Shown here piece by piece: positions 1-62,648 of a DNA stretch of 64,000 bases. Every line of letters starts with the position of its first letter. Position 1 is the stretch's first letter. The notes under the pieces are model-generated. The model had not been told where the DNA came from. It saw only the letters and a list, made by a program, of their open reading frames with translations, and ran no database searches. The position numbers and the translations under genes were made by a program. Origin of the DNA: a virus; the IMG/VR virus record IMGVR_UViG_3300042887_005324, positions 32,001-96,000 of that record. One strand, 5' to 3'.

Positions 1-369
1 CTCATATCTAGATATTTTCTTATCCTTATTCAAGTCTGCCTTTTCTGGATTTTTAAGACCTGATTTTTTATAAGAAGTATTTTTAGCTTCGAAACTCATA
101 TCTTTACCAGTCATGTCTTTCTCTTTATCATTTTCATCTTCATCATTACAAGGAACACATTCTTCTTCCTCTTCTTCCATAGGCATTCTTCCTGCTACAA
201 CTTTTCTTAATTCATCTGAATATTCATCTGATAATTCAGAAGGAGTATAATCAATTTCTGAATCTCTTTCTAATCCATCTGCTCTTCCAGCAACTATTGA
301 TCTTAAATCATTTGAGTAATCATATTCTTGATCATCTCTAAAACTTTCAAACTTTTTTAAGTATTTCAT
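1..369 (-). CDS. Hypothetical acidic protein (partial, runs off window), CTS-like N-terminus, possible EF-hand-like loop
   Basis: Manual translation from ATG at 369: MKYLKKFESFRDDQEYDYSNDLRSIVAGR...YSDELRKVVAGR...ADLNKDKKISRYE; open to position 1. Not in the ORF track. Confidence 0.75.
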   Translation of the reverse strand, partial: MKYLKKFESFRDDQEYDYSNDLRSIVAGRADGLERDSEIDYTPSELSDEYSDELRKVVAGRMPMEEEEEECVPCNDEDENDKEKDMTGKDMSFEAKNTSYKKSGLKNPEKADLNKDKKISRYE

Positions 370-1694: not shown

Positions 1695-3950
1695 ATGAGT
1701 TTGAGTAAAAAATACAGTGATTTTTTATTGATGAGATTATTTGAATCTGTCTTCGTTACAAGTAGAGAGTTCAAACAGATTATTAATGATATGCCAAATA
1801 CTGATAAAATTGCAGATATTTTGTATAGTATTATTGATGAAAGAACAGATATTAAAACTAATTATAATTTAGTTGATATTCAGAAAGACAAAAATGATGA
1901 AATTTCATTTTTGCCAGATACTCAGTATCAAAGATTCATCACTAAAGGTGAGGATGTATCTACTAAGACTAAGAGTAATTCAAAAATTGGTAGAATGATT
2001 GGGCAAATTTTGAGAGACAATGGTCACACTAAATTTACTGATTCGGATATTGAGAAATTCGTAAATTCATTCAAATCTCAGTGGAATAAGAAACATGGAA
2101 TTATTAACCGTAAAACTGAAGTAGTCAAAGGTGATCAAATTTTAAAGTGGTATAACAGTAAGAATTATAATTCCGATAAAGGAACCTTAGGTAGCTCTTG
2201 TATGAGATATGATAAAGTGAATCACTTTATGAATATCTATGCTAAAAATCCAGATAAAATATCTATGGTTATTATTACTGAAGAAGGTAAATTAGTAGCA
2301 AGAGCTTTATTCTGGGTACTAGATGAAACAACTGCTGGATCAAGTAAAAAGTTCTATTTAGATAGAATTTATACTGAACAGGATTCTGATTTTCAGTTTG
2401 TTTATGATTGGGTTGTTGAGAATCTATGTGCCAATGATCCAAAAATTCTAACGTCACATAAAAATGGTGATAATCAATATGAGATGAAAGTTTTCTTAAA
2501 AAACACTAAATTTGATCATTATCCTTATGCTGACACATTTAATTATTTATATGAAAGATTAAACAAAGATGGTCAAGTTACTGGAAGTGGATTTGTTTCT
2601 AACCTACATGATGAATCTATGGCTGAGCAGACAAAAGATGGTCAGAGTTTTCTTATTTCTGAAATAAGAAATCACAGTGAAGGTACTCCGAGTAATTTAA
2701 GTCATGTATATTCAGAATATTTTGATAGTTATATACTGAAAAGTGAGGCAGTGAAAGATCATAGATTAGGTTGGATTCCAAAATCCAAATGTAAAAGATG
2801 TGAGTTTGATGGTGAATGGATTTATGAAGAAAATGCTATCTGGTCTGATGCAATGCAAGATTGGATTCATAAAGATTTTGCACGCGATTCAGACTTTGGA
2901 GTTGTTCATAAAGATGCTGTGAAAAAAGTGGCGACCAAATATATTGGTAAATATACTAACCCTATAGATTTTATAAACGGATTAGGAAAAGGTGAAGAAT
3001 TGTTTGAGATCAAAGATATGATTAAGTCATCATCTTCAGAATTTGAGATACCAGAAAATCGATATGGAGGTCCTCGATATTATATAAAAGAATTACTAGT
3101 GAAAGATATTTGGGGTGATTACCAAGTAAAACAATCATCATTTGAATTACACGAATGTGATGATGTTGAATTAACAAAAAAAGTTGAGTTTTCAAATCTG
3201 ATTATAAGATCTAAGTATATGATGTTAGATGATGCAGTTTTATTTGATGTAAATTACACAGATACTACAATATGGATAGGTTTTAGTGATCTAAAGGATT
3301 TTTATGATCAAGCGTATTATACAAAATTCATGGAATTTTTAAAATCATCAAATATTGATGAATCTACTAAAAAGAGAATTAGTGAAGTCAAAACGAAGTT
3401 TCATGAATATTGGTTCGCTGAGTCTAGTGCTTATCGTACAGCCTTTAACTTACAGGAAAAAATGAAGAATGTCACTCCTGAAGAAGTTGTTTTAGAACTT
3501 TATGAGTCGGTTTGTTCAAAACTTGCAAAAAAAGGTTTTTTTGAAGAACGTGTTATAGAGGCTCTTGAAAATGAATATTATGACTATATGAGTATGAGTC
3601 CCGAAAATAAAGACGAAGTAATAAAATTTAGCTTAAAATTAATTGAGGTCATGATCCTACCATATCTTATCACAGAAGATAGTTACGATTCTAAAATTGA
3701 ACTACAAAAATGGTGTTCAAATAGTTCATCAATTCGAAGTGAAATGAGTAAGATTGCGTTAGATATCGCACAGCTCAAAGACCGTTACTTCAGTTATTTA
3801 AGATCTGTCTTTAGGGAATTTCTAAATGAAATTAGAATTGAAAAAAGACAAGGTCTTGAAGAATTGTTAAGAAATTATAGTCTGACTAGTCGTGAGTTAG
3901 AAATGTTTATTTCAAAAATCAATTTGGAAAAAATGAGTCCATTTAAATAA
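1695..3950 (+). CDS. Large phage protein with an SCMRY/ARA-W/DRIY/YPYxDTF domain (paralog of 58082..59059)
   Basis: Motifs GSSCMRY, ARALFW, YLDRIY and YPYADTF match the 325-aa ORF at 58082. Confidence 0.75.
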   Translation: MSLSKKYSDFLLMRLFESVFVTSREFKQIINDMPNTDKIADILYSIIDERTDIKTNYNLVDIQKDKNDEISFLPDTQYQRFITKGEDVSTKTKSNSKIGRMIGQILRDNGHTKFTDSDIEKFVNSFKSQWNKKHGIINRKTEVVKGDQILKWYNSKNYNSDKGTLGSSCMRYDKVNHFMNIYAKNPDKISMVIITEEGKLVARALFWVLDETTAGSSKKFYLDRIYTEQDSDFQFVYDWVVENLCANDPKILTSHKNGDNQYEMKVFLKNTKFDHYPYADTFNYLYERLNKDGQVTGSGFVSNLHDESMAEQTKDGQSFLISEIRNHSEGTPSNLSHVYSEYFDSYILKSEAVKDHRLGWIPKSKCKRCEFDGEWIYEENAIWSDAMQDWIHKDFARDSDFGVVHKDAVKKVATKYIGKYTNPIDFINGLGKGEELFEIKDMIKSSSSEFEIPENRYGGPRYYIKELLVKDIWGDYQVKQSSFELHECDDVELTKKVEFSNLIIRSKYMMLDDAVLFDVNYTDTTIWIGFSDLKDFYDQAYYTKFMEFLKSSNIDESTKKRISEVKTKFHEYWFAESSAYRTAFNLQEKMKNVTPEEVVLELYESVCSKLAKKGFFEERVIEALENEYYDYMSMSPENKDEVIKFSLKLIEVMILPYLITEDSYDSKIELQKWCSNSSSIRSEMSKIALDIAQLKDRYFSYLRSVFREFLNEIRIEKRQGLEELLRNYSLTSRELEMFISKINLEKMSPFK

Positions 3951-4807: not shown

Positions 4808-5989
4808 ATGAACGCTGACTCGAAAAGAAAATATAAAAATATAGATTTACCATTTATTTGTCCTTTGACAGGAAGAACATTTAATTCAGTCAAGGGATTA
4901 GCTATTTATATAACTAAAAGTTTAAAATTAGATCATAAGTATTACTATGATAATTATATAAATCACAGAAGTATTGAGTGTTATTTCTGTGGTGGTATAG
5001 GAGAGTTTATTAGTGTGGGTAAGGGGTATCGAAATCTTTGCAATAATAAATTATGTATAGAGAAATCATTTAAGTCGAATTCAATTGATGGTATCAGATA
5101 TAGAGAAAATTGCTCTATGGAAGAAGCTAATCTGATATTTAGAAACACAAACAAAAAAAATCTTGAGAAGAGGACTAAAACTATATCAAGAATAAAGAAG
5201 GATAACCCAAATTTCTATAAAGAAAATAGTAGAAATTGTAAAGAGTATTGGGTCAAAAGGGGTTACTCGGAAAAAGAATCTATTCAGAAAAGTATTGATG
5301 TTATGAATGAAATACATAAAAAAACATCAACTAAAAGAAAAGAAGATAAGGAGAAGTATAAACATAGTTACAATACCTGTATAGAATATTATATAAAAAG
5401 AGGATACTCAGAAGAAGAAGGAAAAAGATTGATATCCGAGAGACAAAAGACTTTTTCATTAGAAATATGTATAAATAAATATGGTTCAGATAAGGGTTTA
5501 GAAATTTGGACAAATAGACAAAGTAATTGGTTAAATAAATTGAATACAAAACCAAATTCCGAAAAAATAAAAATAAACAGAAAAAAAATATCTAATAAAA
5601 CTGGATATTCGAAATCTTCTCAAGTTCTTTTTTGGAAAATTTATGATTTATTTAGAGATAATAATATAGAATTCGGAGAGTTAAATTCAGAATTCATAAA
5701 ATATGACGAAATTAATAGTAGGTTTTATAAGTATGATTATGTTGACCATACACTTAAAAAAGTCATAGAATTTAATGGTGACTACTGGCATTGTAATCCA
5801 AATGAGTATAGTTATGATTATTTTCATCAAGTATTAGAGAAAACAGCTGAACAAGTGTGGATAGACGATAAGTTTAAAAATAAACTACTAATGAATGATG
5901 GATATGACATTTTCATCATATGGGAGAGTGACTTTATGAGTAATCCTAAACAAGCATTGGACGCATGTATAGAATTTATAAAAAAATAA
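4808..5989 (+). mobile_element. Free-standing homing endonuclease, Vsr/DUF559-like (PD-(D/E)xK-type), inside the fractured helicase gene
   Basis: C-terminal YDYVD...VIEFNGDYWHCNP...GYDIFIIWE; N-terminal Cys motifs and YW/YYxKRGYSE repeats; lies between the two intein halves. Confidence 0.8.
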
Positions 5990-59079: not shown

Positions 59080-59292
59080 ATGAATTTTATTTTAGAGTTT
59101 AAAAGTTTTTATAAGCCAGGTGATTTAGTATTAATAAAATACTGGTATAACCGTATGGTAACACCAGTGAGAATTGTTGAAAAAAAAGGAAATAAGTTTT
59201 TAATTTCACACGATGTTGAATCTTCTAAAATTAGAAACGCTCCTGATGAATTAATCAAAAACTCTGAAATCATATCTCCGTATAGAAATTAA
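59080..59292 (+). CDS. Small SH3/Tudor-like hypothetical protein
   Basis: MNFILEFKSFYKPGDLVLIKYW; bidirectional late motif at 59066-59078. Confidence 0.6.
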   Translation: MNFILEFKSFYKPGDLVLIKYWYNRMVTPVRIVEKKGNKFLISHDVESSKIRNAPDELIKNSEIISPYRN

Positions 59293-60407
59293 GATAAATG
59301 AAAAATAATATCATCATAGAAGGCTTGATCTTTAGGATCATTCATATCTAAGTATTGTTCTTTAATAATCTCAAAGTCTTGAACAGTCAATTTATCATCG
59401 AACAACATCTGTTTTAAAGACTCATAATAAAACTTTGTTTCTCTTTGTGAAAAACTATCAGTAATATCGTTTTCGAGTGTATCTAAATAAATCTTTTGTG
59501 GTTTATTTTTTACAGTTTTCCACTTACTCTTAGGAGTTTCATCATACCAATCATCATAGTCACGAAAGGCTCTTGAAGAAAGCTTTCTACTTGTTCCACT
59601 TCTTGAAGAAAAACGACCAGTTGGATGATAACTATCATAAGTAGAATATTCACTTTTATAATAGTTTTTATATTCTTTATTCTTAGTATCTCTTTCAGTT
59701 GGTAGATTTTCCCAATCAATTTTAACAGAAGCATTACAAAGTTTCACTAAGTGTGCTAAATCTTGATGTTCTTCGTGTGTATGTTCTTTGTAATAACCAA
59801 CAGAGATATTTGTACATTCTGAAATAACACCAGTAAACTCAGCTGAGTCAGTATAAACACCAGTATCGTCTGGTGCCATCATCATACCATTACTATTATA
59901 CTGTTTTGCTAGTTCATTTGCAAATTTATCAGAACAACATCTTTGAGAAGATTGATAAGTAATAATAGAACCAGTACCTCTTCTATCAAAAGAAATCATT
60001 CTATTATAGTTCTTAAACAAATCATCTTTAGAAGCTGCACTTGAACCAATACATCCAACTTCTTCTCCGATGAAAAAACAATAAAGACCTGGAACATTTT
60101 TCTCTATCATATAAAGTAAGACTGTCATACCAGCTTTATCGTCAGCTCCTAAAATACTCTTACCATTTGTTCTGATATAATTTTTATCAAAAACATGAGT
60201 CACATTTACTTGAGCTTTACAAGCAGTATCTAAGTGACAAGTAAAAGCTGTTTTACTTTCGCCAATTTTATAGTAATAGTTTCCGTGTTCGTCTTTGAAA
60301 TATCCTTTTGGTAGAAAAATCTCTAATTCTTCTTCATAACCATAAGGAAAGGTTTTCATCGTAAGTGCCAGAAAAGTTTCTTTAATTTTCATTAGGTTAA
60401 TATTCAT
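59289..60407 (-). CDS. M28/M20-family zinc peptidase
   Basis: CHLDT, LGADDKAG, GEEVG, SFDRRG, YTDS, NISVGYYKEHT; host-type promoter at 60412-60421. Confidence 0.85.
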   Translation of the reverse strand: MNINLMKIKETFLALTMKTFPYGYEEELEIFLPKGYFKDEHGNYYYKIGESKTAFTCHLDTACKAQVNVTHVFDKNYIRTNGKSILGADDKAGMTVLLYMIEKNVPGLYCFFIGEEVGCIGSSAASKDDLFKNYNRMISFDRRGTGSIITYQSSQRCCSDKFANELAKQYNSNGMMMAPDDTGVYTDSAEFTGVISECTNISVGYYKEHTHEEHQDLAHLVKLCNASVKIDWENLPTERDTKNKEYKNYYKSEYSTYDSYHPTGRFSSRSGTSRKLSSRAFRDYDDWYDETPKSKWKTVKNKPQKIYLDTLENDITDSFSQRETKFYYESLKQMLFDDKLTVQDFEIIKEQYLDMNDPKDQAFYDDIIFHLS

Positions 60408-60498
60408 TATATACAAATATAAGGTAAAAATCTGAAATATCCAAATTTGTCAGTATTTATTGGTTTTTTTCAGAAATTCAAATATAAACAAAAAATAT

Positions 60499-61257
60499 TT
60501 ATTTTAATTTAAATTTTAATTTTAATTCTTTTATTAAATGTGGATGAGCCCATTTTTCATCTAAAATATCAACTTCTACGACCTGTTTGTTGGGTATTAG
60601 GTTGTGTTTCAATTGATAATGATCACCTATAGATGTTGGATCAGATGGTTTATTAACTCTAAAAATACTTCCATCTTCAAGTTGAATAAATAAGGTTCCT
60701 TTTTTATACTTAAATTTGTTGCCATTATTATATTCTATTTCAACATCTTCTTTAACTTTCCAGCCTTTTACTTCATATTTTTTGGAATCAGGGTTATTAT
60801 CACTAAATAATTTATCAAGTTTGAAACTTCTATATTCCATTTGATTCATTACATATAATGGTTTTATTCTCCACTCACAAACACTATTCTTAGACAAGTG
60901 ACATTTAAGAGCCGCCTCATTTGCTTGATGTATTGAATGATATATTTTGTGATTCCAATATGTAGTCCATCCATACCATTCACCTTTATTGTCTTTCCAT
61001 CTTACTTCTAAAGTATATCCATAAGGATTTATATCATCAGCGACAGCTTGACATTTAAAATGAATTGATTCTTCTATTGCCCAATTTTTACCATTAACTG
61101 TGTAATAGTGTTTTGGAGTTACTAATTTTTCTGTGGATGTTCCGGTGATCTCTTTGAAAGAGTTGAGATCTGTGTTTGAATGTGTTTGATAACCTGAGTT
61201 GATATCTTGTCTGGTTAAATTGACAAGTTGAGAATTTTGTGAATTAATCTACATCAT
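60499..61257 (-). CDS. 252-codon hypothetical gene with an in-frame amber codon at codon 3 (ATG ATG TAG ATT...)
   Basis: Frame read by hand: no stop from 61248 to the TAA at 60499; 117 open codons lie upstream of the track's TTG start. Late motif at 61276-61284 and an A-rich leader precede ATG 61257. Confidence 0.65.
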
Positions 61258-61293: not shown

Positions 61294-61374
61294 TGCTTCC
61301 AGGAGGGCACGATCCCCTTTCCTCTGAGGTTAGAATTCAGATTATCCCCACGGATAATTTAAGGATCTGAAAGC
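61294..61374 (-). ncRNA. Atypical tRNA-like RNA with CUA anticodon (candidate amber suppressor)
   Basis: GCTTTCA/TGGAAGC acceptor stem plus A73; 7-bp ATTATCC-GTGG-GGATAAT arm; CTGAA-TTCTAAC-CTCAG anticodon arm; 5-nt variable region; degenerate T-arm AGGGG-ATCGTGC-CCTCC. Confidence 0.55.
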
Positions 61375-61381
61375 AATTTTG

Positions 61382-61454
61382 TGCGCCCTACTGGGATCGA
61401 ACCAGTGACCCGCTGATTATGAGTCAGCCGCTCTAACCTCTGAGCTAAAAGCGC
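61382..61454 (-). tRNA. tRNA with CAT anticodon (probably Ile2/lysidine type; elongator Met not excluded), no encoded CCA
   Basis: GCGCTTT TAGCTCAGAGGTTAGAGC GGCTGA CTCATAA TCAGC GGGTC ACTGG TTCGATC CCAGT AGGGCGC A; C4-G69 fits a TilS substrate. Confidence 0.9.
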
Positions 61455-61480: not shown

Positions 61481-61490
61481 TACAAATATA
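61481..61490 (-). promoter_or_regulatory. Bacteroidota-type -7 promoter driving the tRNA pair
   Basis: TATATTTGTA 26 nt upstream of the tRNA 5' end. Confidence 0.55.
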
Positions 61491-61564
61491 AAAAGAGTTT
61501 GTTAATTAACAAGTTTTTTTTCATATTTTGTTCAAAACAAAGAATTATCTAACCAATATATAAA

Positions 61565-62648
61565 TTAGCTGTTCGTCAATCTTATGTCGAGTGTTCAAAG
61601 TGACACTTTTAAGAGTTTGAAAAGACTCAAAGATATAGGACTAAAATAAAAGGAATAACTATGAAAGTTAAACAAAAAAAAGGCACTAATTTGCCTAGTG
61701 CCTTTATTGTAAATCCAAAAGATAAAGGCAGAAAATCAATCAAAGGAGATAAAATCTATCTCGATAATAATCAAGAATTTGAAATCGAAATCTTTAATCC
61801 TCTAAAAGAATCTGTCTTAGCAGATATTCGTTTGAACGGTAATTCAATTTCAAAGACTGGTCTTGTAATAAAACCAGGTCAACGAGTTTACTTAGATTGT
61901 TTTGTTGATGATAGAAAGAAATTCATATTTCAGACTTATCAAGTTGACGATAATCAAGAATCTATTGATGCTACTGCTGACAATGGCTTATTAGAAGTAT
62001 TTTTCTATAAAGAACAAGCAGTTACTCTCAAAGATTGGAATGATAGATTTCATAAGATCGTGGTTCATGAATACTATCCTGTCTATACAAGATGGTATTC
62101 AAATCCATATTATATCCCGTATTATGGAACAACGCTCACCACTACAAATGTAGTAAATAGTATATACACAACAAATGGTAGTAACACACTTACCGTTGGT
62201 AATTCAAATGTTTCATATTCATCAAACTTTAATGGAAGTTTGACCTCTGGGAGTTTATCATCAAACACTGCTTATTACAATTCACCTGTAGCTGGTTCTT
62301 TTGAAACCGGTAGAGTTGAAAAAGGTGAAAAATCTAATCAGAAATTTGTAGATGTCGATATGGAATTTGAAAAGAACTACATACACCATCTTGTATATCA
62401 AATTCTTCCGAGTTCAAGAAAACCAAAGGATATTAACGATATCTCAAAGTCTAAGAAGATTATGGAGAAACTAAAATCAAATAAGCCACAATTAAATGAT
62501 ATCTTAAAAAGAGAGTCAGAAGATGTAATCGAACTAATTAAAAAACTAGCTGACTTACACTCAGCAGGTATATTAACAGATGAAGAGTTTTCAGATAAAA
62601 AGTCTGAATTACTTAGTAAAATCTAAAGACAATAAAACGAACAGCTAA
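61565..62648 (+). repeat. Long-range 12-bp perfect inverted repeat enclosing the 61661..62626 gene
   Basis: TTAGCTGTTCGT (61565-76) / ACGAACAGCTAA (62637-48), extendable by TTATGTC / GACAATAA. Confidence 0.7.
61661..62626 (+). CDS. Hypothetical protein with C-terminal SHOCT-like domain
   Basis: Beta-sandwich-like N-domain (EFEIEIFNP...NGLLEVFFYKE); IKKLADLHSAGILTDEEFSDKKSELLSKI. Confidence 0.75.
   Translation: MKVKQKKGTNLPSAFIVNPKDKGRKSIKGDKIYLDNNQEFEIEIFNPLKESVLADIRLNGNSISKTGLVIKPGQRVYLDCFVDDRKKFIFQTYQVDDNQESIDATADNGLLEVFFYKEQAVTLKDWNDRFHKIVVHEYYPVYTRWYSNPYYIPYYGTTLTTTNVVNSIYTTNGSNTLTVGNSNVSYSSNFNGSLTSGSLSSNTAYYNSPVAGSFETGRVEKGEKSNQKFVDVDMEFEKNYIHHLVYQILPSSRKPKDINDISKSKKIMEKLKSNKPQLNDILKRESEDVIELIKKLADLHSAGILTDEEFSDKKSELLSKI

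What the first reader, a model, noticed from the sequence alone, without database searches (positions are those of the whole stretch)
61294..61454. Non-canonical architecture and alternative fold of the CUA tRNA-like RNA, co-transcribed with a normal tRNA(CAU)
Seen: the RNA lies 7 nt after the tRNA(CAU), and both end in discriminator A followed by CA. It has a 9-nt linker after the acceptor strand (normally 2), a 7-bp D-like stem with a 4-nt loop (reminiscent of tRNA-Sec D arms), an A31-C39 mismatch and a T-loop ATCGTGC lacking TTC. The linker GATCCTT can instead pair with GGGGATC of the T-arm, giving a mutually exclusive fold. Inference: a two-state or orthogonal tRNA, or a tRNA decoy against anticodon nucleases, which standard tRNA finders would probably miss.
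Basis: partly seen in the sequence, partly recalled or inferred. Interest (0 to 1): 0.7.

Follow-up and report, generated by a model that had tools for sequence, protein, structure and literature searches.

The report
Rewired stop-reading tRNA in giant phage
This giant lake-phage RNA is a real, conserved transfer RNA of an unusual shape that standard finders miss; it reads the UAG stop codon and most likely unlocks the neighbouring gene, which begins ATG-ATG-TAG.

Summary
The RNA is there as described, on the minus strand at 61294-61374, 7 nt after tRNA(CAU). ARAGORN and the Rfam tRNA model both miss it.

It is not decay. A covariance model found 35 relatives in other phage contigs: 93% of cells paired, and 20 of 22 pairs changed on both sides. 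A model built without the window's sequence scores it 54.6 bits, against 33 for tRNA-Met.

Shared plan:
- 8-bp acceptor and 4-bp T stem
- an 8-nt connector whose first 3-4 nt covary with the variable region
- a 5-7 bp D-like hairpin with GG in its loop
- a non-Watson-Crick 31:39
- anticodon CUA throughout

I found no published tRNA with this connector-variable helix.

Every relative of the downstream gene with upstream sequence (91 loci, plus Tenacibaculum phage pT24 and uncultured huge phages) starts ATG, 0-7 codons, then TAG. Ancestrally this gene has the PTH2 hydrolase fold. In the window only 28 residues of it survive, fused to the next gene.

TAG is otherwise a normal stop, so the best reading is a private amber suppressor gating one gene. 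No step is experimentally shown.

The scan has noted this tRNA-PTH2 cassette on other DNA before. The tRNA's architecture appears not to have been analysed.

The parts
61485..61512 (-). Promoter-like site upstream of the two tRNAs (TTGTTA, 16 nt, TATATT). It overlaps a TATATTTG motif at 61483-61490.
   Evidence: Consensus scan only. The TANNTTTG motif is not enriched in the window. Inferred, weak.
61382..61454 (-). Canonical tRNA with anticodon CAU. G1-C72 is paired and the anticodon stem lacks three G-C pairs, so it is not initiator-like.
   Evidence: ARAGORN. Rfam RF00005 66.5 bits.
61375..61381 (-). 7-nt spacer (CAAAAUU) between the two tRNAs.
   Evidence: Read directly.
61294..61374 (-). 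81-nt non-canonical tRNA(CUA). Acceptor 5' strand 61367-61374; connector 61359-61366 (UCCU at 61362-61365 pairs with AGGA at 61320-61323); D-like hairpin 61341-61358; anticodon arm 61324-61340 (anticodon 61331-61333); variable region 61318-61323; T arm 61303-61317; acceptor 3' strand 61295-61302; discriminator A 61294.
   Evidence: Minimum-free-energy fold. R1 81.1 bits. R2, built without this sequence, 54.6 bits, E 5e-12. Family covariation. Connector-variable covariation.
61249..61257 (-). Leader ATG ATG TAG. The in-frame amber is codon 3 and is followed by ATT.
   Evidence: The same ATG + 0-7 codons + TAG leader is in all 91 related loci that include upstream sequence, in phage pT24 and in huge-phage records.
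60499..61248 (-). 249-codon frame after the TAG, with no ATG/GTG/TTG in its first 117 codons. Residues 1-28 (about 61165-61248) are the remnant of a PTH2-like gene. From about residue 29 it is the homologue of the gene that follows PTH2 in relatives (function unknown).
   Evidence: the outlier among all long ORFs of the record. BLASTP: 67% identity to L002:3342-4040 over residues 29-249, and 53% identity over a 32-column alignment of residues 1-28 with residues 1-32 of the L002 PTH2-like protein. No Pfam or PHROG family.

Best explanation
The RNA at 61294-61374 (minus strand) belongs to a conserved family of structurally rewired phage tRNAs with anticodon CUA.

**Shown**
- The fold has an 8-bp acceptor and a 4-bp T stem, giving the usual 12-bp branch.
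- A 3-4 bp helix forms between connector nt 10-13 and the variable region. It is continuous on its 3' strand with the anticodon stem.
- A separate 5-7 bp hairpin carries GG in its loop.
- The anticodon stem has 4 pairs plus a non-Watson-Crick 31:39.
- The loop is U33-CUA-A37.

**Inferred**
- The connector-variable helix stands in for the D stem, and the hairpin presents GG to the T loop, so an L shape is kept.
- The RNA is transcribed together with tRNA(CAU), trimmed, and given CCA (only CA is encoded).
- A host synthetase charges it; which one is unknown.
- It competes with release factor 1 at the UAG that is codon 3 of the ORF starting 36 nt downstream. That ORF is then made only when the tRNA is present and charged.

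Ancestrally the gated gene is a PTH2-fold peptidyl-tRNA hydrolase homologue. In this phage a deletion removed all but its first 28 residues and fused the amber-bearing leader in frame to the next gene. That gene has no start codon of its own.

TAG is otherwise an ordinary stop in these phages. The tRNA is therefore a private key for one or a few genes, not a genome-wide code change.
For: **The RNA family**
- R1 finds the RNA at 47-93 bits, against at most 32 for ordinary tRNAs. It lies on the same strand, upstream of the PTH2-like gene, in 11 of 13 distinct IMG/VR loci. Two further loci carry other CUA tRNAs at 36-41 bits.
- It is also found in 38 of 80 metagenome loci.
- Among 57 distinct genes with at least 1 kb of upstream sequence, 31 have the non-canonical tRNA and 4 more have another CUA tRNA within 3.5 kb.

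**Structure**
- 93.4% of cells pair; 20 of 22 pairs have changes on both sides; 0 of 500 shuffles reach the covariation score.
- RNAalifold on an independent MAFFT alignment gives the same helices.
- The connector-variable helix has at least 3 Watson-Crick pairs in 81% of 26 distinct combinations, against 9.9% when connectors and variable regions from different sequences are combined. Near-identical tRNAs differ by GU/AC versus GC/GC.
- R2, built without the window's sequence, scores the window RNA 54.6 bits.

**Anticodon**
- Every member has CUA.

**The gated gene**
- All 13 IMG/VR loci and all 78 metagenome loci that include upstream sequence have ATG + 0-7 codons + TAG.
- The next codon is ATT in most, but GTA, ACA, AAC or ATA in others, always starting with a purine.
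- Database gene calls reach the ATG only when TAG is read as Q.
- Distant relatives at 34-59% identity in cultured phage pT24 and in huge-phage records keep both the TAG and CUA tRNAs.
- The window ORF is the only long ORF of the 174-kb record that lacks a start codon for 117 codons, and it is preceded by ATG ATG TAG.
- In the complete 373-kb relative, only the PTH2-like gene shows this pattern among ORFs of 80 codons or more.
- The PTH2 fold of the ancestral gene is supported by Pfam at 26.1 bits and by an AlphaFold model (pLDDT 82) that matches PTH2 structures at probability 1.00, TM up to 0.71.
- The TAG lies in the low-confidence N-terminal tail, ahead of strand 1, so any inserted residue should be tolerated.
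Against: - Nothing is experimental.
- The window's T loop (AUCGUGC) departs from the family's UUCGAAU, and its original client gene is largely deleted. This particular copy could be losing function.
- TAG ends 8-12% of long ORFs in these phages. An efficient suppressor should carry a cost, and TAG-terminated genes show no special back-up stops.
- 22 of 57 well-covered loci have no CUA tRNA within 3.5 kb.
- ATT after the TAG in most loci is also compatible with a non-AUG start.
- No phage synthetase was found.
Confidence: 0.7

Rival explanations
1. Mini-ORF plus non-AUG start. ATG-NNN-TAG is a two- or three-codon upstream ORF. The real gene starts by re-initiation at the ATT after the stop. The CUA tRNA serves some other purpose.
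For: ATT follows the TAG in most loci. The arrangement resembles minigenes, whose products are peptidyl-tRNA hydrolase substrates (my own knowledge of the lambda bar minigenes).
Against: Several loci have GTA, ACA, AAC or ATA after the TAG. In L060 no ATG, GTG, TTG, ATT, ATA or CTG lies between the TAG and the conserved KLVVITR strand. The ATG is in frame in all 91 loci. A tRNA whose anticodon matches that very stop codon sits beside the gene in 61% of well-covered loci.
Confidence: 0.1
2. Relic in this phage. The family is functional elsewhere, but here the PTH2 gene is deleted and the T loop has drifted, so the window's copy is on the way to being lost.
For: The PTH2 domain is absent from the 174-kb record. 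The T loop AUCGUGC is unique among the members examined. R2 score is 54.6 bits, at the low end of the family.
Against: All helices are intact apart from the 31:39 position, which is non-Watson-Crick across the family. This holds although the sequence differs widely from the L002 copy, whose neighbouring protein is 67% identical. U55, C56 and G57 are kept, and positions 54 and 58 are swapped together (U/A to A/U). The downstream 249-codon frame is open and has no start of its own, so it still depends on the leader.
Confidence: 0.1
3. Non-decoding tRNA mimic: a decoy for host anticodon nucleases or another tRNA-binding factor, or a regulatory RNA that is never aminoacylated.
For: The architecture is far from canonical. 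Phage tRNAs that counter host tRNA-cleaving defences are known (my own knowledge). PTH2 in jumbo phages has been linked to rescue after tRNA cleavage (PMC7824862).
Against: No standard-code host is expected to have an abundant tRNA(CUA) for a nuclease to target, so a CUA decoy would protect nothing. The acceptor stem, discriminator, 12-bp branch and U33/purine-37 loop are all conserved as in a working tRNA. The cognate codon is conserved in the neighbouring gene.
Confidence: 0.07
4. Two-state switch. The connector alternates between pairing with the variable region and pairing with the T-arm 5' strand, turning the tRNA on and off.
For: In the window 6-7 pairs can form between GAUCCUU and GGGGAUC. 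Most relatives can form 3-5 pairs.
Against: In several members these pairs are mostly G.U, and both segments are conserved for other reasons. When the T stem changes (CGUG, GGCG, CCGG) the connector does not follow. The competing connector-variable helix does covary.
Confidence: 0.03

Closest known systems
(8/4) tRNAs: allo-tRNAs and (8/4) tRNA-Ser and tRNA-His of bacteria and phages (Mukai et al., PMC5389517)
   Same: The 12-bp acceptor branch is split 8/4. The D stem is long, with a tetraloop in the window's copy. Such tRNAs occur in phages and were shown to be compatible with bacterial translation when converted to amber suppressors.
   Different: Those tRNAs have a long variable arm, a 2-nt connector and a longer anticodon stem. 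This family has a 6-nt variable region, an 8-nt connector that pairs with it, and a 4-bp anticodon stem with a mismatched 31:39. The natural anticodon here is always CUA.
Phage-encoded suppressor tRNAs of stop-codon-recoded phages (code 15; crAss-like, Lak; Borges et al., 10.1101/2021.08.26.457843)
   Same: A phage-borne tRNA(CUA) lets in-frame TAG be translated in a standard-code host. Read-through is proposed there as a regulatory gate. The authors expected undetected non-canonical suppressor tRNAs.
   Different: There, many late genes carry in-frame TAG. Here TAG remains a normal stop, and only one gene (a few in some relatives) carries it, always within the first 1-8 codons after the ATG.
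tRNA-Pyl and tRNA-Sec
   Same: Dedicated stop-codon-reading tRNAs with compact or elongated D arms and atypical cores. tRNA-Pyl shares the anticodon CUA, and ARAGORN labels relatives 'tRNA-Pyl' for that reason alone.
   Different: tRNA-Pyl has a 0-1 nt connector, a 6-bp anticodon stem and a 3-nt variable loop (PMC7609411). tRNA-Sec has a 13-bp branch and a long variable arm. No Pyl or Sec machinery was sought or seen.
Tenacibaculum phage pT24 (LC168164): annotated tRNA-Sup (BPT24_227) and BPT24_235
   Same: A cultured Bacteroidota jumbo phage with the same ATG AAA TAG leader on its PTH2-like gene and a CUA tRNA 2.5 kb upstream on the same strand.
   Different: Its CUA tRNA is an ordinary cloverleaf (R2 31.5 bits). 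Its PTH2-like domain is fused to an HD-like domain. The record annotates the CDS from an internal ATG.
Synthetic suppressor-tRNA feed-forward gates (PMC7969014); prfB autoregulation through an in-frame UGA (my own knowledge)
   Same: Expression of a gene is made conditional on decoding of an early in-frame stop codon.
   Different: Those are engineered, or rely on frameshifting sensed by RF2. Here a natural, co-encoded tRNA would supply the read-through.

Membership tests
Canonical tRNA (Rfam RF00005 cloverleaf) | Reaches the family's gathering score (29 bits) | tested here: not met
   No hit for 61294-61374 even at E<=10. Relatives score 17.6-26.6 bits.
Canonical tRNA (Rfam RF00005 cloverleaf) | 7-bp acceptor, 2-nt connector, 4-bp D stem closing the D loop, 5-bp T stem | tested here: not met
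   8-bp acceptor, 8-nt connector, 4-bp T stem. Nt 10-13 pair with the variable region, not with nt 22-25.
Canonical tRNA (Rfam RF00005 cloverleaf) | Anticodon loop with U33 and purine 37; 12-bp acceptor/T branch; unpaired discriminator | tested here: met
   U33-CUA-A37, an 8+4 branch and discriminator A. 31:39 is non-Watson-Crick in 28 of 34 members.
Canonical tRNA (Rfam RF00005 cloverleaf) | T loop UUCRANY and GG in the D loop for the elbow | tested here: inconclusive
   The window has AUCGUGC: U55, C56 and G57 are kept, and positions 54/58 are swapped. The hairpin loop is GUGG. Relatives have UUCGAAU and GG.
Canonical tRNA (Rfam RF00005 cloverleaf) | Processed, CCA-ended and aminoacylated in vivo | not testable with these tools
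(8/4) allo-tRNA group (PMC5389517) | 8/4 split of the 12-bp branch | tested here: met
   Acceptor pair 8 is paired in all 34 distinct members, and a 4-bp T stem is paired in 100% of cells.
(8/4) allo-tRNA group (PMC5389517) | Long variable arm and elongated anticodon stem, as in tRNA-Sec | tested here: not met
   The variable region is 5-7 nt and the anticodon stem has 4 pairs plus a mismatch.
Suppressor tRNA of a stop-codon-recoded (code 15) phage | Many phage genes interrupted by in-frame TAG | tested here: not met
   One ORF in the 174-kb record. In the complete 373-kb relative, one gene among ORFs of 80 codons or more; TAG ends 37 of 312 long ORFs there.
Suppressor tRNA of a stop-codon-recoded (code 15) phage | Anticodon complementary to the in-frame stop codon used by the phage | tested here: met
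   CUA in every member, with TAG in every leader.
tRNA-Pyl | 0-1 nt connector, 6-bp anticodon stem, 3-nt variable loop | tested here: not met
   8-nt connector and 6-nt variable region. Features taken from PMC7609411.
The family defined here (models R1 and R2) | High score with a model built without the window's sequence | tested here: met
   R2 54.6 bits, E 5e-12; the neighbouring tRNA-Met scores 33.1. R2's training set was collected with R1, which had the window as one of three seeds.
The family defined here (models R1 and R2) | Lies upstream, on the same strand, of a gene with an ATG(+0-7 codons)TAG leader | tested here: met
   36 nt upstream of ATG ATG TAG.
PTH2 (PF01981), for the gated gene | Pfam score over the cut-off and PTH2 fold | tested here: not met
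   Met in relatives (26.1 bits; fold match). The window ORF keeps only 28 residues of it, and the record has no PF01981 match.

The most novel reading that the evidence does not exclude
This is a new tRNA architecture that still works on the ribosome. The D stem is formed with the variable-region strand instead of nt 22-25. The freed D-loop segment folds into its own hairpin that reaches the T loop. Phages use this shape specifically for a private amber suppressor that unlocks one gene. The odd shape may serve to make the tRNA orthogonal, either to host enzymes and nucleases or as the specific substrate of the co-inherited PTH2-like hydrolase, which would close a feedback loop.
Probability: 0.45. 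Interest if true: 0.88.

Novelty: new variant of a known kind. Interest (0 to 1): 0.78.

Why it matters
- It adds a secondary-structure class to the short list of natural non-canonical tRNAs. The class comes with rich covariation and a built-in functional read-out, the amber in the next gene.
- It shows concretely why suppressor tRNAs go undetected in phage genomes. Only about 40% of TAG-recoded phages had a detectable one in Borges et al.
- Annotation pipelines truncate or mis-code the gated gene. Database calls either start at internal codons or read TAG as Q.
- It offers a natural example of single-gene translational gating by a co-encoded tRNA in standard-code phages. This could be a step on the way to stop-codon recoding.
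- It is a candidate orthogonal tRNA scaffold for genetic-code expansion.
- A cultured relative of the cassette, Tenacibaculum phage pT24, makes the gating idea directly testable.

Tried and rejected
- **Genome-wide TAG recoding: rejected.** Merging ORFs across TAG gives no split large genes in the 174-kb record or in the complete 373-kb relative. There, same-frame neighbours separated by TAG mostly restart at ATG two codons later.
- **tRNA-Arg(UCU) decay: rejected** by compensatory changes and by C before UCUAA in about half the members.
- **Initiator-type tRNA reading UAG as a start: rejected.** G1-C72 is paired and the anticodon stem has no three G-C pairs.
- **ATT as the start codon: unlikely** (see rivals).
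- **Back-up stops after TAG-terminated genes:** no signal.
- **Phage synthetase or release factor:** none found for PF00749, PF00152, PF00133 or PF00472 in three records. Other synthetase families were not searched.
- **Exact 17-mer of the anticodon arm in IMG/VR:** no match.
- **BLAST of the RNA against cultured phages:** only the tRNA-Met half matches.
- **First alignment-based protein search:** timed out.
- **The look-up of sequencing runs:** closed, so no RNA evidence could be sought.
- **Nearest ordinary tRNA in the complete relative,** as a clue to amino-acid identity: uninformative.
- **LR745208:** its PTH2-like gene has an ordinary GTG start although a UUA-anticodon tRNA lies beside it.

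Full report
**Setting.** The window is bases 32001-96000 of a 174-kb IMG/VR virus record. The record is 30% G+C, and CheckV estimates it at 68% complete. Genes are dense under the standard code.

**The observation.** The features lie on the minus strand. ARAGORN and Rfam find one tRNA in the window, tRNA-Met(CAU) at 61382-61454, scoring 66.5 bits.
- Neither ARAGORN nor the Rfam tRNA model reports it, even at E<=10 on a 321-nt stretch.
- Its minimum-free-energy fold has five elements:
  - an 8-bp acceptor
  - a 4-bp helix between connector UCCU and variable-region AGGA
  - a 7-bp hairpin with loop GUGG
  - an anticodon hairpin carrying CUA
  - a 4-bp T stem
- The single-sequence z-score is only -1.86, so the case for structure has to rest on comparison with relatives.

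**The neighbouring gene.**
- The ORF 36 nt downstream reads ATG ATG TAG ATT. It then stays open for 249 codons, with no ATG, GTG or TTG in the first 117.
- Among all ORFs of 80 codons or more in the record, it is the clear outlier.
- Its relatives show what it is. In a related contig (L002) the same leader, ATG AAG TAG ATT, opens a 114-residue gene.
  - That gene passes the Pfam PTH2 cut-off at 26.1 bits.
  - An AlphaFold model built from 30 homologues (pLDDT 82) matches the solved PTH2 hydrolases over their full length. These include 2zv3, 3erj (TM 0.71), 1q7s and 1xty, all at probability 1.00.
- The window's ORF keeps residues 1-28 of that protein. From about residue 29 it continues as the homologue of the next gene, at 67% identity.
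- A deletion therefore fused the amber-bearing leader to the following gene. The record holds no other PTH2 match.

**The in-frame TAG is conserved.**
- All 13 distinct IMG/VR relatives have ATG, 1-7 codons, then TAG just ahead of the first conserved strand.
- All 78 metagenome loci that include upstream sequence have ATG, 0-6 codons, then TAG.
- The codon after the TAG is ATT in most. In others it is GTA, ACA or AAC, and in Tenacibaculum phage pT24 it is ATA. It always starts with a purine.
- In L060 the leader reads MNRIEEFT*VQPKNKLVVITR, with no possible alternative start between the TAG and the domain.
- Full-length database calls of the family read M-x-Q-I. The look-up shows that this Q is TAG read as Gln by the gene caller. 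Other calls are truncated at internal starts.
- Distant relatives at 34-59% identity have the same leader. They occur in the cultured Tenacibaculum phage pT24 and in four uncultured huge-phage records of 460-735 kb.

**The RNA is a family.**
- In L002 a quite different sequence occupies the same place and can be drawn the same way. A third copy lies 2 kb upstream of the gene in another contig.
- All three are 81 nt long and align without gaps.
- Model R1, built from them, finds 47-93 bit matches upstream of the gene, on the same strand, in 11 of 13 IMG/VR loci. Ordinary tRNAs score at most 32 bits. Two further loci hold a cloverleaf-like or D-arm-reduced CUA tRNA at 36-41 bits.
- R1 also matches in 38 of 80 metagenome loci.
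- One ENA contig begins in the middle of a copy, 84 nt before the gene.
- On 34 distinct sequences:
  - 93.4% of cells pair, against 30-43% when partners are slid
  - 20 of 22 pairs have changes on both sides
  - no shuffle of 500 reaches the covariation score
- RNAalifold on an independent MAFFT alignment returns the same helices.
- Model R2, built from 35 relatives without the window's sequence, scores the window RNA 54.6 bits (E 5e-12). The adjacent tRNA-Met scores 33.1.
- Random decay of a tRNA-Arg(UCU) is thus excluded. About half the members have C before UCUAA, which fixes the reading as U33-CUA-A37.

**Architecture.** The constant features are:
- an 8-bp acceptor
- a connector of consensus A-N-N-(Y)UUAAW
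- a 5-7 bp hairpin with GG in its loop
- zero or one nucleotide before the anticodon stem
- a 31:39 position that is C.A, A.C or C.C in 28 of 34 members
- a 5-7 nt variable region
- a 4-bp T stem
- discriminator A (G in a few)

The connector's first 3-4 nt are complementary to the variable region, and they change with it. Examples are GU/AC, AAC/GUU, UCCU/AGGA, GCU/AGC, AAA/UUU, AUCU/AGAU, AGCA/UGCU, AGUC/GACU and ACC/GGU.
- Of 26 distinct combinations, 81% form at least 3 Watson-Crick pairs. Only 9.9% do so when connectors and variable regions from different sequences are combined.
- Near-identical tRNAs differ by the double change GU/AC to GC/GC.
- This helix is continuous on its 3' strand with the anticodon stem.

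My reading is inference. The helix takes the place of the D stem, and the hairpin offers GG to the T loop.

I found no such arrangement in the two papers on unusual tRNAs that I read. One describes 8/4 tRNAs with long variable arms (PMC5389517). The other reviews tRNA-Sec, tRNA-Pyl and mitochondrial forms (PMC7609411). Four other literature searches also found nothing.

**The alternative fold.**
- In the window the connector can pair with the T-arm 5' strand and loop over 6-7 positions.
- In relatives the best such pairing is 3-5 positions, largely G.U in several. It does not adjust when the T stem changes.
- I rate it unsupported, though not excluded.

**Scope of TAG read-through.**
- In the 174-kb record, TAG ends 23 of 190 ORFs of 100 codons or more. 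No large gene is split by TAG.
- In the complete 373-kb relative, TAG ends 37 of 312 long ORFs. In most cases where two ORFs are separated by TAG in the same frame, an ATG follows two codons later.
- Only the PTH2-like gene combines a nearby upstream ATG, a TAG, and no start for 75 codons.
- TAG-terminated genes show no special back-up stops.
- No synthetase of the three Pfam families searched and no release factor is encoded in this record or in two relatives. Charging would therefore fall to a host enzyme, and the inserted amino acid is unknown.
- The TAG lies in the low-confidence N-terminal tail of the model, so any residue should be tolerated.

**Linkage.**
- Among 57 distinct PTH2-like genes with at least 1 kb of upstream sequence, 31 have the non-canonical tRNA within 3.5 kb and 4 more have another CUA tRNA.
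- CUA is the commonest anticodon among the tRNAs that ARAGORN finds in these loci: 12 of 72.
- Some loci hold a cloverleaf and a non-canonical CUA tRNA side by side.
- Phage pT24 carries an annotated tRNA-Sup of ordinary shape 2.5 kb upstream.
- Mycobacterium phage Myrna has a CUA tRNA, annotated tRNA-Ser, 130 nt after its PTH2-like gp84. That gene's start region reads GTG TAG GTG.

**Conclusion.**
- Shown: a conserved, structurally constrained, non-canonical tRNA(CUA) family; a conserved early in-frame TAG in the adjacent gene family; and standard use of TAG elsewhere.
- Inferred: the tRNA is matured and charged, and it suppresses that TAG, so the gene is translated only in its presence.
- What the gate is for remains open. 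It could be a timer or AND gate. It could be a sensor coupling the hydrolase to suppressor activity. It could be a feedback loop in which the hydrolase acts on its own tRNA.
- PTH2 in jumbo phages has been discussed as a ribosome-rescue factor (PMC7824862), with no mention of the amber codon or the tRNA.
- Borges et al. anticipated undetected non-canonical suppressor tRNAs.
- Earlier notes of this scan describe the tRNA-PTH2 amber cassette on many other genomes. I reached it independently before looking. Three word and sequence look-ups found no earlier analysis of the tRNA's architecture.

Noticed in passing
L005:993-1122, 1268-1354, 1476-1541 (IMGVR_UViG_3300044640_002737); L016:1501-1583 minus strand: Repeated tRNA-like units share the same acceptor and T arms (AGUCAGGUGG ... 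CAGGUUCGAAUCCUGUCCUGAC) but carry different inserts of tens of nt or more where the anticodon arm should be. They lie between the CUA tRNA and the PTH2-like gene. ARAGORN calls them intron-bearing tRNAs. They could be natural tRNA-scaffolded RNAs.
   Followed up: no
L283 (Tenacibaculum phage pT24, LC168164) 2955-3909: A cultured phage has the leader ATG AAA TAG ATA on a PTH2-like domain fused to an HD-like domain (BPT24_235, phrog_14850). The record annotates the CDS from an internal ATG 30 codons into the conserved domain. In L002 the two domains are separate neighbouring genes.
   Followed up: partly
L285 (Mycobacterium phage Myrna, NC_011273) 1471-1479 and 1963-2034: gp84 (PTH2-like) starts in a GTG TAG GTG context, and the Shine-Dalgarno spacing fits the second GTG. 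The tRNA annotated tRNA-Ser (gene 86) just downstream has anticodon CUA and a reduced D arm.
   Followed up: partly
L289 (LR745208) 5402-5478: A tRNA with anticodon UUA (reads UAA) lies just after a PTH2-like gene. That gene has an ordinary GTG start and no in-frame stop.
   Followed up: partly
L286 (LR756500) and L287 (LR756501), around 5000-5400: In LR756500 the gene after the PTH2-like gene also starts ATG AAG TAG ATT. In LR756501 the PTH2-like gene has a second in-frame stop, and two CUA tRNAs lie 2.4 kb downstream.
   Followed up: no
L236:2472-2680; L282:2594-2755; L055:2828-2979; L219:3360-3898: A cloverleaf-type and a non-canonical CUA tRNA lie side by side in the same locus. The L282 non-canonical copy has A33 in place of U33.
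   Followed up: no
L002:4663-5577 compared with window 60417-60498: A GIY-YIG-like homing-endonuclease ORF and the HD-like gene lie between the gated gene and the M28-peptidase-like gene in the relative. Both are absent from the window, so the region is prone to insertions and deletions.
   Followed up: no
window 59289-60416 (-), 61661-62626 (+): Flanking genes: an M28-family peptidase-like protein (Pfam 23.9 bits) and a 321-residue protein ending in a SHOCT domain.
   Followed up: no
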